This document shows, piece after piece, positions 53,514 to 59,903 of a stretch of DNA of 64,000 nt. The stretch is from Escherichia phage vB_EcoM_CRJP21. Numbering within the stretch: the first letter of the stretch is position 1; each line of letters opens with the position of its first letter. Under the pieces are notes generated by a model. The model did not search any database. It was given only the letters and a program-made list of their open reading frames with translations, and was not told the origin of the DNA. Location of the stretch: sequence record OQ708376.1. The stretch is one strand, 5' to 3'. The translations under genes and the position numbers were made by a program.

Positions 53514-56500
53514 TTAAGCAGTACGTTGTGCAATAAACATATCTGTTACTGGACTCACCCCGTCATAAATGACTTGGTAGATAGTTACAGAGTTTGCAGT
53601 TTTGTTTAGAGTTCCATCAACAACCGCATAAGTACCATCAGTAGTAAAGTTTCTATTACCTGTTGCATCTTGTTTTACATAAATGTATACTGAAGATGCT
53701 TTACCACCACCGATTAGACCAGTGATTGGTGCTAGAGTTGTATCTTGATCTAGAGTGATAAAGTATACGTTGCTAGTACCGTCTGGGGTCCAAGTGCCAG
53801 TTGGTGCAATAACAGAAGAAGTTACTTGATTAGGAATAACATCATATTTTTTAGTAGTTACTGTTGTAGTAGTCAAGTCAGCATTAGTAGTTGTTAATTG
53901 ACCAGTTACAGTTACATCTTTATCAAATACTGCATTTTCTTTGAAAGAAGATGTTGCATTGACAGTTAATGTATCAGCAGCCGCGTCACCTAAAACAACA
54001 CTACCATTTGCAGTCATTAATCCAGTAACAGTTAAAGTACCACCGATTGTTGCTGCTCCAGTAACAGATGCACTAGCAAGTGTTGCTGCACCAGAAGTAG
54101 TAATAGTAGTTACTGAAGTTGCTGCTAGGGTTGCAGTACCTGTTGCAGAAATATCACCACCAACAGTTAGGTTACCAGAAGTAATCCCAACGGTTCCAGT
54201 AATGTTAGCACCACTTGACATTGTTACTGCACCACCAAATGAACCAGTAGTAGTTACTTCAAGGGTGTTCCCTTTTAGCAGACCAGTTGCAGTAATACTT
54301 GTACCTGCGGTAATGCTAGTACCAGCAGCAACACTGTTGGTTGCAGTTAATGATTTAACAGCTACATCAGAGTTTGCTTGGTTTAGTGTTGCGTTTAGAA
54401 CACCAGTTACTGTAAAGTTACCGTTGTTAACTACGTTACCATTGATTGTTAAGTTGTTGTTTTGTGAACCAACATCACCAATAGTTGCTGATTTAGAAAT
54501 CAACTCTGCACCAGAAGTAATATTACCCGCTGCACTAATAGTGTCAGCCGCAACAACTGCATAAGGTTCGATTGTTTGACCACTAACATCAATATCAGCG
54601 TTGATACCACCATCTACACGCAAGGAACCAGCAATGTAAGTGTTAGGGAAAATCTGAACTGTTTCTGGTTGTTCACCGATCTTAGTACCAATAATAACAT
54701 TAGAACCAGTTTTCACTGCACCAGAAGTTGTTAGTGAACCTAAAGTTGCTGCACCAGTTACACCTAGTGTACCACCAATTGTTGCATTGTTAGTAACTGC
54801 TAATGCAGTTCCTTCACCATTAAGAGTGATTGATGGAGCAGTTGCTGCACCAGTTACACCTAATGTACCACCAATTGTTGCATTACCATCTGAATGTAGT
54901 GTGGTTGCAACAGAAAGACTGTTTGCAACTACATCAGTACTAGCTAAATCCAATGCACCTGGCGTTAATGTACCAGTAATGTTAACATTATTACCAAAGG
55001 TTGCTGCACCAGTTACATCTATTGTAGTACTAAATGTACCAGAAGTTGCAGATACCGCACCTGAATCTAGTGAACCGACAGTTGCCTTTCCAGTTACACC
55101 TAGTGTACCACCAATTGTTGCATTGTTAGTAACTGCTAATGCAGTTCCTTCACCATTAAGAGCGATTGATGGAGCAGTTGCTGCACCAGTTACACCTAGT
55201 GTACCACCGATTGTTGCATTGCCGTTTGAATGTAGGGTTGTTGCAACAGAAAGACTGTTAGCATCTACATCAGTACTAGATAAATCCAATGCACCTGGGG
55301 TTAACGTGCCAGTAATATTAACATTGTTACCAAATGTTGCTGCACCTGTTACACCTAGTGTAGTACTAAATGTACCAGAAGTTGCAGATATTGCACCTGA
55401 ATCTAGTGAACCGACTGTTGCCTTTCCAGTTACATCTAAAGTACCACCAACTGTTCCATTTGTGGTTACTGCCAATGTACCAGTACTTAATTCTTGTGCA
55501 GTTACCTTACCGGATGCAGTAACAGTTGAAGTGGAAACACCACCAGTTAGAGTACTTGCACCAGTAACACTTAATGTGGTTGCAGCAGTTACGCTATTCA
55601 CGTTAAGATCAGCACCGGATAGGTCCAAACCACCTTCAGGAATAAATGCACCCTTAACAGTTAGTTTTTGTACAGTACTGTCACCAGTTACATCTAGAGT
55701 AGATGCTGTAAGGCCACCATTCATACTAGCTGCACCAGTAACACCAAGGGTAGTAGTTACAGTTGCACTATTAAGGGTAGAGTCACCAGAAATATTAGCA
55801 CTTGGTGCGGTAATAGTTCCTGCATCAACTTGAATACCACCATCAACTACTTGAATACCACCAGTATTAACTGTTAGTTTACCACCAGTTGACAATGTGT
55901 TTGAAACTGTAGTTGCACCAGTTAACGTTGTGGTTCCAGTAACACCCAAGTTACCAGAAATAGATGGACTACCTGTAATGTTACCTGTAGTTAGAATCAA
56001 ATCAGTACCTACAGTGGTAGAGCCAGTACTTTCTAGTGTTACACCGACGATGTTTGCAGAACTTAGGTCAATAGAACCATCAACAGTTAAGTTACCTTGA
56101 ACGGTTGCATCACCTAGAGAAGTTAATGTCTTCACAGACACATCAGTTGTGCTAAGATCAATAACACCCGCAGTTAGTGTTCCAGATACTGCTAAATTAC
56201 CAGTAATCGCGGTATTTTTAGTAATGGATACATTTTCTGCCGCTGAAGTAATAGAACCAACAGTAAGTACACCACCAACAGTTGCGTTATTAGTTACATT
56301 TAGAGCAGTTCCAACACCAGATAGTGTTGCTGACCCACCAGTAATTGCACCTGAGATTGAAGCTGTTGCTGCTGAAACATCACCAGAAACTACTGCATTT
56401 GTTGCATTTAGAGCAGACACTGTAACTTCAGTACTTTGAACTTTAGGTAGAACGTTGATACCTTCTGCACTACTAACTGTAATAATACCAGTACTTGTTA

Positions 56501-59500: not shown

Positions 59501-59903
59501 TACCTTTAAATGCTGTTGTTTCAGCAACTTCTAAGTTTTTAACTTTAGTTGCTTGTAGAGTGGTTGTACCAGCAGTTTGTGTAAAATCAGAACCAACTGA
59601 TACAGTACCGTTAAAGGTAGCGTTTGAATTAATTGTTGCTGTATCAGACCCGACCACTGCACTACCGATTGTAGTATTACCCTCAACACCAAGACCACCA
59701 GAAAGTGTTGCTTTGCCACCTACATCTAAAGTAGATGTAATATTGGCAGTTGATGATTCAATGGCAGTAAAAGTTGCATTTGCAAAAGTTACAGTACCAT
59801 TTACAGTTAGGTTATTGTTGAAAACAGCATTTCCTTTGACTAAAAGATCCTTACCAACCGTACCAGCACCAGTAATATCTAAGTCAGTTTTTATTGAGTA
59901 CAT
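53514..59903 (-). CDS. giant repetitive tail fibre protein (2129 aa)
   Basis: Thr/Gly/Ser/Asn/Val-rich; three internal repeat families visible at DNA level. Confidence 0.7.
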   Translation of the reverse strand: MYSIKTDLDITGAGTVGKDLLVKGNAVFNNNLTVNGTVTFANATFTAIESSTANITSTLDVGGKATLSGGLGVEGNTTIGSAVVGSDTATINSNATFNGTVSVGSDFTQTAGTTTLQATKVKNLEVAETTAFKGNITADVGTTAAFDKITANTAEITNVSTTDISSTGTATFKDVTISGTLGGEFNLSDLNAVTLNVTGASNQQGAVTFGANVTGINSTATFKDIRIGSNSESQTFRLSFPYTAPGKRPTVILQNEIQSELMSPANLTVLTSASFGNASLSSYGITGNGLNKLDYLTVSGNNTQSPDTPLLEVQKGKTKVADFEVTGTATIPNIESTGTANFNNINISGVLGGTFQLDDINAVTLNVTGATSLVGGVTLGSNITGYNSTATFKAISLGQNSQDAAVKLGFGYTAPGQRPTVILPNEVQSEVVSPSTLNVLKTATFGNASLSSYGITGNGLNKLDYLTVSGNETQAPDTPLLEVQKGKTKVADFEVTGTATIPNIESTGTANFNNINISGVLGGTFQLDDINAASLNVTGATSLVGGVTLGSNITGYNSTASFKAISLGQSSQDSAVKLGFGYTAPSQRPTVILPNEVQSELVSPSTLNVLKTATFGNAALSTYGITGNGLNKLDYLTITGNATQDPSTPFLQVGGKAILNDVDFTGTVTGLTVDVSGQDLTPNSVVAATNIKGATLESTGNTTVGAKLTVTGDIAGTTATLSGALSAGSVSSGSITGTTSVSAPTISASTEVTAPTITASGTVSGQTINGTNISATTLTAPTISGNTNFTENVDITGNLTVTGTVTPGTIDLSTTDVSAKSITTTAGANIGGDLVVQGSFDLSAADINVKSLTSSGIVKSNDLVNANVLPVLNSTTITATTVNADDITVTGSANLGTIYSSSSVLVGSTLTVTGETTTASLVTPTISNASGVTISNNTNVTGDLTVTGAVIPGSIDLATTDVNAKSITTTAGATIGGNLTVNGTVDLTTADVTVKSLTSTGAIVSNESTISSVLPKLQSTDATIATLGSTTANITNLNVTGASTVADVTSSGKVKAVSVETPTISNVDGVSISNNTSITGDLTVSGTVTPGAIDLSTTDVSAKSITTTAGANIGGDLVVSGTVDLSGSDVSVKSLTSTGIITVSSAEGINVLPKVQSTEVTVSALNATNAVVSGDVSAATASISGAITGGSATLSGVGTALNVTNNATVGGVLTVGSITSAAENVSITKNTAITGNLAVSGTLTAGVIDLSTTDVSVKTLTSLGDATVQGNLTVDGSIDLSSANIVGVTLESTGSTTVGTDLILTTGNITGSPSISGNLGVTGTTTLTGATTVSNTLSTGGKLTVNTGGIQVVDGGIQVDAGTITAPSANISGDSTLNSATVTTTLGVTGAASMNGGLTASTLDVTGDSTVQKLTVKGAFIPEGGLDLSGADLNVNSVTAATTLSVTGASTLTGGVSTSTVTASGKVTAQELSTGTLAVTTNGTVGGTLDVTGKATVGSLDSGAISATSGTFSTTLGVTGAATFGNNVNITGTLTPGALDLSSTDVDANSLSVATTLHSNGNATIGGTLGVTGAATAPSIALNGEGTALAVTNNATIGGTLGVTGKATVGSLDSGAVSATSGTFSTTIDVTGAATFGNNVNITGTLTPGALDLASTDVVANSLSVATTLHSDGNATIGGTLGVTGAATAPSITLNGEGTALAVTNNATIGGTLGVTGAATLGSLTTSGAVKTGSNVIIGTKIGEQPETVQIFPNTYIAGSLRVDGGINADIDVSGQTIEPYAVVAADTISAAGNITSGAELISKSATIGDVGSQNNNLTINGNVVNNGNFTVTGVLNATLNQANSDVAVKSLTATNSVAAGTSITAGTSITATGLLKGNTLEVTTTGSFGGAVTMSSGANITGTVGITSGNLTVGGDISATGTATLAATSVTTITTSGAATLASASVTGAATIGGTLTVTGLMTANGSVVLGDAAADTLTVNATSSFKENAVFDKDVTVTGQLTTTNADLTTTTVTTKKYDVIPNQVTSSVIAPTGTWTPDGTSNVYFITLDQDTTLAPITGLIGGGKASSVYIYVKQDATGNRNFTTDGTYAVVDGTLNKTANSVTIYQVIYDGVSPVTDMFIAQRTA
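54775..55440 (-). repeat. two tandem repeats of about 330 bp inside the giant fibre gene
   Basis: gttgcattgttagtaactgctaatgcagttccttcaccattaagag... repeated. Confidence 0.75.
57880..59410 (-). repeat. three tandem 510-bp repeats inside the giant fibre gene
   Basis: gtttaggccattaccagtaat... recurs at 58011, 58521 and 59031 with long near-identical flanks. Confidence 0.85.

What the first reader, a model, noticed from the sequence alone, without database searches (positions are those of the whole stretch)
53514..59903. Giant fibre gene built from long near-identical tandem DNA repeats
Seen: the 2129-aa minus-strand ORF contains three tandem 510-bp units (57880-59410, period fixed by the recurrence of gtttaggccattaccagtaat at 58011, 58521 and 59031), two units of about 330 bp (54775-55440), and four shorter protein-level repeats (VTPGTIDLSTTDVSAKSITTTAGANIGG) between them. 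The repeats stay in frame and are nearly identical at nucleotide level. Inference: recent duplication; homologous recombination between units would change fibre length. The many plus-strand ORFs in this interval are antisense artefacts of the repeats.
Basis: seen in the sequence. Interest (0 to 1): 0.55.

Follow-up and report, generated by a model that had tools for sequence, protein, structure and literature searches.

The report
Modular giant jumbo-phage tail fibre gene
This is the known giant tail-fibre gene of an E. coli jumbo phage; its shaft is built from repeated protein modules whose number differs between related phages, but the copies are old and diverged, so it is an ordinary, well-documented case of modular fibre evolution and not a recent duplication.

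Summary
The 2129-aa minus-strand ORF (53514-59903) is real. It is the ortholog of the annotated tail fibre of Asteriusvirus jumbo coliphages: JP4 is 99.5% identical, and phAPEC6 gp256 was found in virions by mass spectrometry. "Nearly identical" is not correct. Whole A units are 61-80% identical in DNA, C units 92% and B units 61-73%. The middle A unit is a clean chimera, with an A3-like head and an A1-like tail that switch at 58560-58574. The second C unit carries a similar junction. Both are scars of in-register unequal crossover. Relatives differ by whole units (A: 1, 2 or 3; C: 1 or 2), giving proteins of 1841, 1959 and 2129 aa. Recombination between units therefore does change fibre length in nature. 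The copies are not recent. They differ at synonymous sites by dS 0.2-0.4 with dN/dS about 0.1, while the flanking A units differ from PBECO4 by only 0 and 5 of 510 nt. The plus-strand ORFs are shadow ORFs in one antisense frame, explained by codon composition and not by the repeats. Verdict: a real, ordinary feature of modest interest.

The parts
53514..59903 (-). Giant tail-fibre gene, 2129 aa, 208.8 kDa, pI 4.2, no Cys, 61% T/G/S/A/V
   Evidence: PHROG 4549 'tail fiber protein' E 9e-263; 99.5% identical to the JP4 'tail fiber protein'; ortholog phAPEC6 gp256 detected in virions by MS
59409..59903 (-). N-terminal 165 aa (MYSIKTDL...), a conserved lineage-specific region; presumed virion attachment (inferred)
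   Evidence: found only in about 60 jumbo-phage records; 53-83% identity over the first 60 aa in all family representatives
58899..59408 (-). A1 module (170 aa)
   Evidence: 0/510 nt differences from PBECO4 A1
58389..58898 (-). A2 module, the extra chimeric unit: first ~325 nt A3-type, last ~172 nt A1-type
   Evidence: shared only with JP4
58560..58574 (-). Crossover interval inside A2 (last A3-like to first A1-like informative site), at the edge of the most conserved block FGNA..YGITGNGLNKLDYLT
57879..58388 (-). A3 module (170 aa), ortholog of A2 in two-unit relatives
   Evidence: 5/510 nt differences from PBECO4 A2
55854..57575 (-). B array: four modules of 138-155 aa with the PGxIDLSTTDVxAKSITTTAGAxIGG motif, 45-56% aa identity
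54732..55460 (-). C array: 2.17 copies of a 336-nt (112-aa) unit, 28/336 differences; a degenerate third copy follows at protein level
55089..55099 (-). Crossover interval at the start of the second C copy (downstream-flank-like up to unit nt ~25-35, then C1-like)
   Evidence: 121Q carries the single-copy state flanked by the short imperfect repeat N(G/A)T(V/I)GGTL(D/G)VTG
53517..54074 (-). Conserved C-terminal domain (aa 1944-2129), 90-100% identical even in distant Asteriusviruses, homologous to the C-terminus of the phiTE fibre chain 9cuy_g
   Evidence: homologs carry the precomputed Pfam domain PF26209
52670..53449 (-). Downstream partner gene, 259 aa, DUF4376; conserved next to the fibre across genera
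   Evidence: its homologs CBB_225 and ENKO_254c were found in virions by MS
60006..60034 (-). Terminator-like hairpin (12-bp stem plus T run) just upstream of the fibre gene; ends the preceding transcription unit
59909..59914 (-). Shine-Dalgarno GGAGGG, 5 nt before the ATG
   Evidence: read from the sequence
53473..53497 (-). Hairpin without a T run between the fibre and the DUF4376 gene
   Evidence: read from the sequence
52641..52664 (-). Terminator-like hairpin after the DUF4376 gene

Best explanation
The ORF is the giant virion fibre gene of an Asteriusvirus-type jumbo coliphage. It belongs to a fibre family restricted to RaK2/GAP32/CBB/121Q-like jumbo phages. Members share a conserved N-terminal 165 aa (MYSIKTDL...) and a conserved C-terminal domain (...FIAQR). 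Between them lies a beta-rich, Thr/Gly/Ser/Ala/Val-rich shaft of variable length, built from three arrays of tandem modules (A 170 aa, B about 140-155 aa, C 112 aa). Shown: the A and C arrays grew by in-register unequal homologous recombination between neighbouring units or short flanking repeats. Each event left a hybrid unit. Whole-module variants coexist among relatives, giving 1841, 1959 and 2129 aa. Shown: the copies are old (dS 0.2-0.4) and under purifying selection, so each module is a maintained structural part. Inferred: the extra A unit is a diverged island inside PBECO4-identical flanks, so it was formed in, or kept from, another lineage and combined with these flanks by homologous recombination. 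Inferred: each extra module lengthens a trimeric fibre by roughly 9-11 nm (A) or 6-7 nm (C). That makes this fibre about 115-140 nm, the longest in the sample. Inferred: it acts with the DUF4376 virion protein encoded just downstream, in host-surface adhesion, possibly to flagella.
For: Identity and family. Virion protein: phAPEC6 gp256, 180 kDa, by MS (PMC7247149); CBB_226 (PMC5259590); ENKO_255c. Chimeric A2: at 200 informative sites the pattern runs 3...3 then 1...1, with the switch at unit nt 324-338. In 16 other phage records the unit splits into two BLAST pieces. C junction and the single-copy state in 121Q. Copy numbers across 20 or more genomes and contigs. A separate three-unit array of different structure occurs in the JNE01 paralog. 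Age and selection. Conserved termini and variable middle. Partner gene and synteny out to Mimasvirus and fENko-Kae01. Homology to a baseplate-attached trimeric fibre of phiTE: PMC11972413.
Against: There is no structural model. Both AF2 runs were low confidence (pLDDT 44 and 53), so trimeric state, fold and nm-per-module are extrapolations. The fibre's location on the virion and its receptor are not established for any Asteriusvirus in the sources I could read. The origin of the diverged middle unit is inferred, because no donor was found in GenBank phages, IMG/VR, metagenome contigs or E. coli genomes. A hairpin without a T run between the fibre and the DUF4376 gene leaves co-transcription uncertain.
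Confidence: 0.8

Rival explanations
1. Recent in-situ tandem duplication: the extra units arose lately in this genome from their present neighbours, and the array is currently unstable.
For: Chimeric unit structure and in-register junctions. The three-unit state is confined to the window and JP4.
Against: The A2 head differs from its own A3 at 32/324 nt (dS 0.39). The A2 tail differs from its own A1 at 14/171 nt (dS 0.32). Yet A1 and A3 differ from PBECO4 at 0 and 5 of 510 nt. The C copies differ at 28/336 nt, and the C duplication is shared by UB and PBECO4. The window and JP4 are independent isolates that keep the same array.
Confidence: 0.07
2. Assembly artefact: the third A unit or the second C unit is an expansion error, or the two-unit relatives are collapsed assemblies.
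For: Tandem repeats are a classic source of assembly error.
Against: Units differ by 8-39% in DNA, enough for short reads to separate them. JP4 was assembled independently and has the identical architecture and length. The two-unit state recurs in more than 15 independent records and 2 metagenome contigs. The reading frame is intact through every junction.
Confidence: 0.02
3. It is a T4 gp34-type proximal half-fibre, as many GenBank records call it ('long tail fiber proximal subunit'), joined through a hinge to separate distal subunits that carry the receptor-binding tip.
For: The C-terminus is highly conserved rather than hypervariable, as expected for a protein-protein joint. A small virion protein is encoded immediately downstream.
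Against: No detectable similarity to T4 gp34: the PDB sequence search at E up to 1 returned only the phiTE fibre, and neither Pfam nor NCBIfam gave a match. No gp35/36/37-like genes follow; the downstream gene is a 259-aa DUF4376 protein. fENko-Kae01 authors found only this one long fibre gene (PMC11218385).
Confidence: 0.2
4. The plus-strand ORFs in the interval (up to 348 aa, three of them annotated as proteins in the PBECO4 RefSeq record) are real overlapping genes.
For: They are long for a 35% GC genome, and orthologous ORFs are annotated as gp549-551 in NC_027364.
Against: All are in a single antisense frame with 36 stops per 2129 codons. Randomly shuffling the fibre's codons gives 38.5 stops in that frame. 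The PBECO4 annotation exists only because that record is cut inside the fibre gene. Other records annotate only the minus-strand gene.
Confidence: 0.02

Closest known systems
Asteriusvirus giant tail fibre orthologs (JP4 CDS0665, UB AXC36801, 121Q gp571, phAPEC6 gp256, SHEFM2K 'tail fiber protein')
   Same: Same gene at the same locus, between the 298-aa virion protein and the DUF4376 gene. 93-99.5% DNA identity, with the same N- and C-termini and the same B array.
   Different: Only JP4 shares the third (chimeric) A unit. The 121Q group also lacks the second C unit. The window version, together with JP4's, is the longest at 2129 aa, against 1959, 1841 and 1827 aa.
Fibres of Mimasvirus and related jumbo phages (GAP32_220, CBB_226, fENko-Kae01 ENKO_255c)
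   Same: Same family: 45-51% identical N-terminus, A modules, 36% identity over more than 1000 aa, conserved C-terminus, same DUF4376 partner and the same synteny. Virion proteins by MS.
   Different: Shorter, at about 1553-1560 aa. fENko-Kae01 is shown experimentally to need flagella, but the fibre's role in that is not shown.
phiTE baseplate fibre, PDB 9CUY/9MJN chain g ('Putative tail fiber protein', 793 aa)
   Same: Homologous C-terminal domain (aa 1944-2126 against 611-792), an A-like segment and VDVSGQDLTP-type linkers; E 5e-28 overall. The paper describes a trimeric long fibre with an extended beta-helix.
   Different: 2.7 times shorter and without module arrays. The N-terminal attachment region does not align. 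Only the N-terminal part of phiTE fibres was modelled experimentally, so the shared parts have no solved structure.
Module shuffling and shaft-repeat number variation in other viral fibres (T-even long tail fibre genes, adenovirus fibre shaft repeats); from general knowledge, not tested here
   Same: Fibre length or specificity changes by recombination at conserved motifs between repeated segments.
   Different: The modules here are much larger (112-170 aa), and the recombination scars can be read directly in the sequence.

Membership tests
Jumbo-phage 'MYSIKTDL' giant fibre family (PHROG 4549) | Profile match to the family | tested here: met
   phrog_4549 E 9.2e-263, 9 stretches
Jumbo-phage 'MYSIKTDL' giant fibre family (PHROG 4549) | Conserved N-terminal region starting MYSIKTDL, followed by A module(s) from about residue 165 | tested here: met
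   all representatives start this way; the A array starts at residues 160-168
Jumbo-phage 'MYSIKTDL' giant fibre family (PHROG 4549) | Conserved C-terminal domain ending ...FIAQR | tested here: met
Jumbo-phage 'MYSIKTDL' giant fibre family (PHROG 4549) | Synteny with a DUF4376 gene immediately downstream | tested here: met
Jumbo-phage 'MYSIKTDL' giant fibre family (PHROG 4549) | Presence in the virion | not testable with these tools
   Shown only for orthologs by published MS (phAPEC6 gp256, CBB_226, ENKO_255c)
T4 gp34 long tail fibre proximal subunit | Sequence similarity to gp34 | tested here: not met
   The PDB sequence search at E up to 1 returned only 9cuy_g; no Pfam or NCBIfam family matched
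T4 gp34 long tail fibre proximal subunit | Followed by hinge and distal subunit genes (gp35, gp36, gp37, gp38-like) | tested here: not met
   The downstream genes are a DUF4376 protein, an Sf6-type needle-knob-domain protein and a 654-aa protein of unknown function
phiTE-type long tail fibre | Homologous shaft and C-terminal domain | tested here: met
   E 5.2e-28, four aligned stretches
phiTE-type long tail fibre | N-terminal alpha-helical 'rip-cord' bundle that docks on the wedge and sheath initiator | tested here: inconclusive
   The N-terminus does not align with 9cuy_g. It looks beta-helical, with a weak sub-threshold bactofilin hit. No reliable model was obtained.
Contingency or phase-variable repeat locus | Short, near-identical repeats whose number change shifts the frame or switches expression | tested here: not met
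   Units are 336-510 nt, 8-39% diverged, and all multiples of 3
Diversity-generating retroelement target | Template and variable repeat pair differing at adenine positions | tested here: not met
   Substitutions between copies show no adenine bias and fall mostly at third codon positions

The most novel reading that the evidence does not exclude
This fibre family may be the long (about 120 nm) 'hair' or 'whisker' fibres seen along the tails of phAPEC6, CBB and fEgEco12, whose gene has never been identified. Alternatively it may be a long fibre folded back along the tail. It may also be the flagellum-binding adhesin of these jumbo phages, in which case module number (A 1-3, C 1-2) would tune the reach of the fibre. 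Clues: the estimated length is 100-140 nm, against about 29 nm for the visible baseplate fibres and 119 +/- 10 nm for CBB hairs. Orthologs are the only annotated long fibre in the flagellum-dependent fENko-Kae01 and are present in SHEFM2K, reported as flagellotropic (cited in PMC11895373). The only solved-structure homolog is from the flagellotropic phage phiTE. Against: GAP32 has the gene but no hairs were reported for it, and the A and C-terminal domains also occur in more than 300 rV5-like phages not known to use flagella.
Probability: 0.2. Interest if true: 0.55.

Novelty: new member of a known kind. Interest (0 to 1): 0.3.

Why it matters
The practical value is modest. First, the analysis gives a module map of the largest fibre of Asteriusvirus therapy candidates (JP4, UB, PBECO4, phAPEC6), and it shows that natural variants differ by whole modules. 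That marks safe cut points for engineering fibre length. Second, it corrects annotations. 'Long tail fiber proximal subunit' is not supported by any gp34 similarity, three RefSeq 'hypothetical proteins' of PBECO4 are shadow ORFs, and the PBECO4 fibre gene is split by the record ends. Third, it offers a testable candidate for the unidentified 'hairy' fibres and for flagellum dependence in this phage group. It does not reveal a new kind of system.

Tried and rejected
AF2 of one A module with flanks (pLDDT 44.3) and of the C-terminal 217 aa (pLDDT 52.6) were both too poor to use, so no fold search was run. The MSAs were shallow because the large protein database returned only 3 relatives per query. 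Pfam and NCBIfam on the fibre gave no family. PF26209, precomputed on homologs, is absent from the local Pfam copy. The search for a closer donor of the chimeric unit found none: GenBank phages, IMG/VR (only 121Q itself), metagenome contigs (two two-unit contigs) and complete E. coli genomes (no match). A self-BLASTP of the protein returned only the identity hit and was replaced by a diagonal scan. The SHEFM2K paper is not in the library. Considered and rejected: a DGR target, a phase-variable locus, an assembly artefact, and real antisense genes. The PDB search with the DUF4376 partner gave only chance-level hits.
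Full report
**1. What is there**

The window (34.6% GC) comes from a jumbo E. coli phage of the Asteriusvirus group. The interval 53514-59903 matches Escherichia phage JP4 at 99.5% over its full length. It matches UB at 96% and PBECO4, 121Q, G17, phAPEC6, SHEFM2K and others at 93-98%. The minus strand carries one uninterrupted ORF of 2129 aa. In relatives it is annotated 'tail fiber protein' or 'long tail fiber proximal subunit'.

The protein is 208.8 kDa and acidic (pI 4.2). It has no cysteine, and 61% of its residues are Thr, Gly, Ser, Ala or Val. 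It matches PHROG 4549 'tail fiber protein' at E 9e-263 but no Pfam or NCBIfam family.

The phAPEC6 ortholog is gp256 (1841 aa, 180 kDa). It was found in purified virions by mass spectrometry (PMC7247149). So were the more distant family members CBB_226 (PMC5259590) and fENko-Kae01 ENKO_255c.

**2. Check of the observation**

The repeat layout is as described.
- **A array:** three 510-nt units at 57879-59408.
- **B array:** four units with spacings of 414, 435 and 465 nt at 55854-57575.
- **C array:** a 336-nt repeat of 2.2 copies at 54732-55460.
- All periods are multiples of three.

The phrase 'nearly identical at nucleotide level' does not hold.
- A1/A2 are 76% identical, A2/A3 80% and A1/A3 61%.
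- The C copies are 91.7% identical (28 of 336 differ).
- The B copies are 61-73% identical in DNA and 45-56% in protein.

**3. How the arrays arose**

The middle A unit is a clean chimera. At the 200 sites where A1 and A3 differ, A2 follows A3 over its first ~325 nt, with 32 mismatches. It then follows A1 over its last ~172 nt, with 14 mismatches. The switch lies between unit positions 324 and 338, which is window 58560-58574.

That layout (A1 | A2-head + A1-tail | A2) is what one in-register unequal crossover in a two-unit ancestor produces. Consistent with this, the unit splits into two BLAST pieces in all 16 other phage records that match it. Only JP4 has it intact.

The C array tells the same story. 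Phage 121Q has a single copy flanked by a short imperfect direct repeat, N(G/A)T(V/I)GGTL(D/G)VTG(K/A)AT(V/L)GSL. In the window, the second copy starts like the downstream flank for about 25-35 nt and then continues like copy 1.

**4. Natural length variants**

Profile counts of units across the fetched genomes gave the following.
- **A units:** two in UB, PBECO4, SP27, G17, 121Q, phAPEC6, UE-S1, ph0011, TH47, fEgEco12, BF17, the upstream JNE01 gene, and both metagenome contigs. Three in the window and JP4 only.
- **C units:** two strong copies in the window, JP4, UB and PBECO4. One in the 121Q group, UE-S1 and ph0011.

This explains the three size classes of close relatives: 2129, 1959 and 1841 aa.

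The downstream fibre paralog of JNE01 has its own three-unit A array with a different internal structure, so expansion happened more than once. An exhaustive profile search of 1.84 billion cluster representatives found only 13 proteins with this module. Family members range from 1175 to 2120 aa and carry one, two or three A modules, always starting near residue 165.

**5. Not recent**

| Comparison | nt differences | dS | dN/dS |
|---|---|---|---|
| Chimera head vs own A3 | 32/324 | 0.39 | 0.08 |
| Chimera tail vs own A1 | 14/171 | 0.32 | 0.08 |
| C1 vs C2 | 28/336 | 0.22 | 0.2 |
| Window A1 vs PBECO4 A1 | 0/510 | 0 | not defined |
| Window A3 vs PBECO4 A2 | 5/510 | 0.04 | 0 |

Most differences between copies fall at third codon positions, with no adenine bias.

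The extra unit is thus an old, selectively maintained module sitting as a diverged island between PBECO4-like flanks. The simplest reading is inferred, not shown. The crossover happened long ago or in an unsampled lineage, and later homologous exchange with PBECO4-like phages replaced the flanks. No closer donor exists in GenBank phages, IMG/VR, JGI metagenome contigs or complete E. coli assemblies.

An assembly artefact is very unlikely. The units are distinguishable, the frame is intact, and JP4 is an independent isolate with the same architecture. JP4 differs from the window by two indels elsewhere in the cluster and by 35 substitutions in this gene.

**6. Antisense ORFs**

All seven plus-strand ORFs in the interval lie in one antisense frame. 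That frame has only 36 stops in 2129 codons, against 160 and 256 in the other two plus-strand frames. Randomly permuting the fibre's codons gives 38.5 stops in that frame. The open antisense frame therefore follows from codon composition (ACT, GGT, GCA, GTT and similar), not from the repeats.

Three of these shadow ORFs are annotated as hypothetical proteins gp549-551 in the PBECO4 RefSeq record. That record's ends cut through the fibre gene.

**7. What the protein is and how it probably works**

Family members share three things.
- **A strongly conserved N-terminal region.** It occurs only in about 60 jumbo-phage records: Asteriusvirus, Mimasvirus GAP32/CBB, Eneladusvirus, Munch/7t3, fENko-Kae01 and Xanthomonas XbC2.
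- **A strongly conserved C-terminal domain.** It is 90-100% identical even where the middle has fallen to about 40-60%.
- **The same downstream gene, a DUF4376 protein**. Its homologs are virion components by MS: CBB_225 with 16 peptides and 68% coverage, and ENKO_254c.

Terminator-like hairpins lie upstream of the fibre gene (60006-60034) and after the DUF4376 gene (52641-52664). Between the two genes there is only a hairpin without a T run. This suggests, but does not prove, a two-gene transcription unit.

The only solved-structure relative is a baseplate fibre of the flagellotropic phage phiTE (9CUY chain g, E 5e-28). It shares the C-terminal domain, an A-like segment and the VDVSGQDLTP-type linkers. 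The phiTE paper describes a trimeric long fibre with a predicted extended beta-helix of 512 Å.

Two scalings give a length estimate. One uses the phiTE value, assuming it refers to the 793-aa chain. The other uses T4 gp34, about 70 nm for 1289 aa, which is from my own knowledge. They give roughly 115-140 nm for this fibre, 100-120 nm for the 121Q type, 9-11 nm per A module and 6-7 nm per C module. These numbers are extrapolations. My two AF2 runs were all-beta but of low confidence.

The conserved ends and variable middle fit a spacer-like shaft. Its ends would make fixed protein contacts, to the virion at the N-terminus and to the DUF4376 protein or a conserved ligand at the C-terminus. Its length would be adjustable in whole modules.

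**8. Comparison with what is known**

This is a member of a known, annotated fibre family, and the same gene with the same three-unit array is already deposited for JP4. The label 'long tail fiber proximal subunit' (T4 gp34) is not supported. No gp34 similarity was detectable, and no gp35-37-like genes follow.

Modular fibres that change length or specificity by recombination at conserved motifs are a familiar theme in phage biology (general knowledge). What is new here is descriptive: the module map, the two crossover scars, the whole-module polymorphism among Asteriusviruses, and the finding that the extra unit is older than its flanks. None of the Asteriusvirus papers I could search describes this.

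**9. The more speculative reading**

Micrographs of phAPEC6, CBB and fEgEco12 show only short baseplate fibres (about 29 nm in CBB) plus unexplained 'hairs' along the tail (119 +/- 10 nm in CBB). The genes for the hairs are unknown. A fibre of 1550-2130 aa is far too long to be the short fibres and is about the length of the hairs.

Separately, fENko-Kae01 needs flagella for adsorption, and its authors found only this one long fibre gene. The Asteriusvirus SHEFM2K is reported to be flagellotropic (cited in PMC11895373; the paper itself is not held).

This makes the fibre a candidate for the hairs, the flagellar adhesin, or both, but the evidence is correlative. GAP32 has the gene and no hairs were reported for it. 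The A and C-terminal domains also occur in hundreds of rV5-like phages. I give this reading about 0.2.

**10. Verdict**

It is an ordinary, already annotated gene with a tidy evolutionary story: interest 0.3, a new member of a known kind.

Noticed in passing
window 51248-52639 (-): A gene for a 455-463-aa protein with an Sf6-type tail-needle-knob domain (PF16532, E 2e-27), preceded by about 35-aa internal repeats (GNILSxDSxGLYVPDN...). It is present here and in UB but absent at the same spot from JP4, SP27, 121Q and G17 (window 51239-52639 has no counterpart in JP4). Its likely true start, MYNIRTDIIVNG, resembles the fibre's MYSIKTDLDITG, which hints at a shared docking peptide.
   Followed up: partly
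window 60956-63097 (-), especially 61121-62637: The colanic-acid-degrading tailspike-like gene (PHROG 6117, pectate-lyase-like fold hit) is full length here, at 713 aa. JP4 lacks 1517 nt of it and annotates only a 606-nt remnant. Its N-terminus, MAVFSNFEGTM..FILGKKGA, is shared with the neighbouring 298-aa virion protein (60043-60939), which suggests a common anchor domain.
   Followed up: partly
L007 (PBECO4 NC_027364) 317-1363, 1679-1969, 4250-4993; window equivalents 54787-55833, 56149-56439, 59230-59973 (+): The PBECO4 RefSeq record is linearised inside the fibre gene. The fibre itself is not annotated there, and three antisense shadow ORFs are annotated as hypothetical proteins gp551, gp550 and gp549. 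The C-terminal piece at the other end of KC295538 is labelled 'YadA domain protein'. Salmonella phage records SD-6_S16 and SD-2_S15 are cut in the same gene.
   Followed up: yes
L011 (fEgEco12), L012 (BF17), L014 (JNE01): More distant Asteriusviruses carry two giant fibre paralogs in tandem at this locus (for example 1628 and 2120 aa in JNE01), where the window has one. The CMSTMSU record has the gene broken into many fragments labelled 'flagellar hook-length control protein'; that record is marked UNVERIFIED, so these are probably sequencing frameshifts.
   Followed up: partly
window 53473-53497 (-): An 8-bp GC-rich hairpin (GGTGTCAC...GTGACACC) without a T run lies between the fibre stop codon and the DUF4376 gene. 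It could be an attenuator or an mRNA-stabilising element.
   Followed up: no
window 53514-59903, middle A unit 58389-58898: Unexplained in detail: the extra A unit is 7-10% diverged from every sampled relative, while its flanks are essentially identical to PBECO4. The donor lineage is not in any collection searched.
   Followed up: yes
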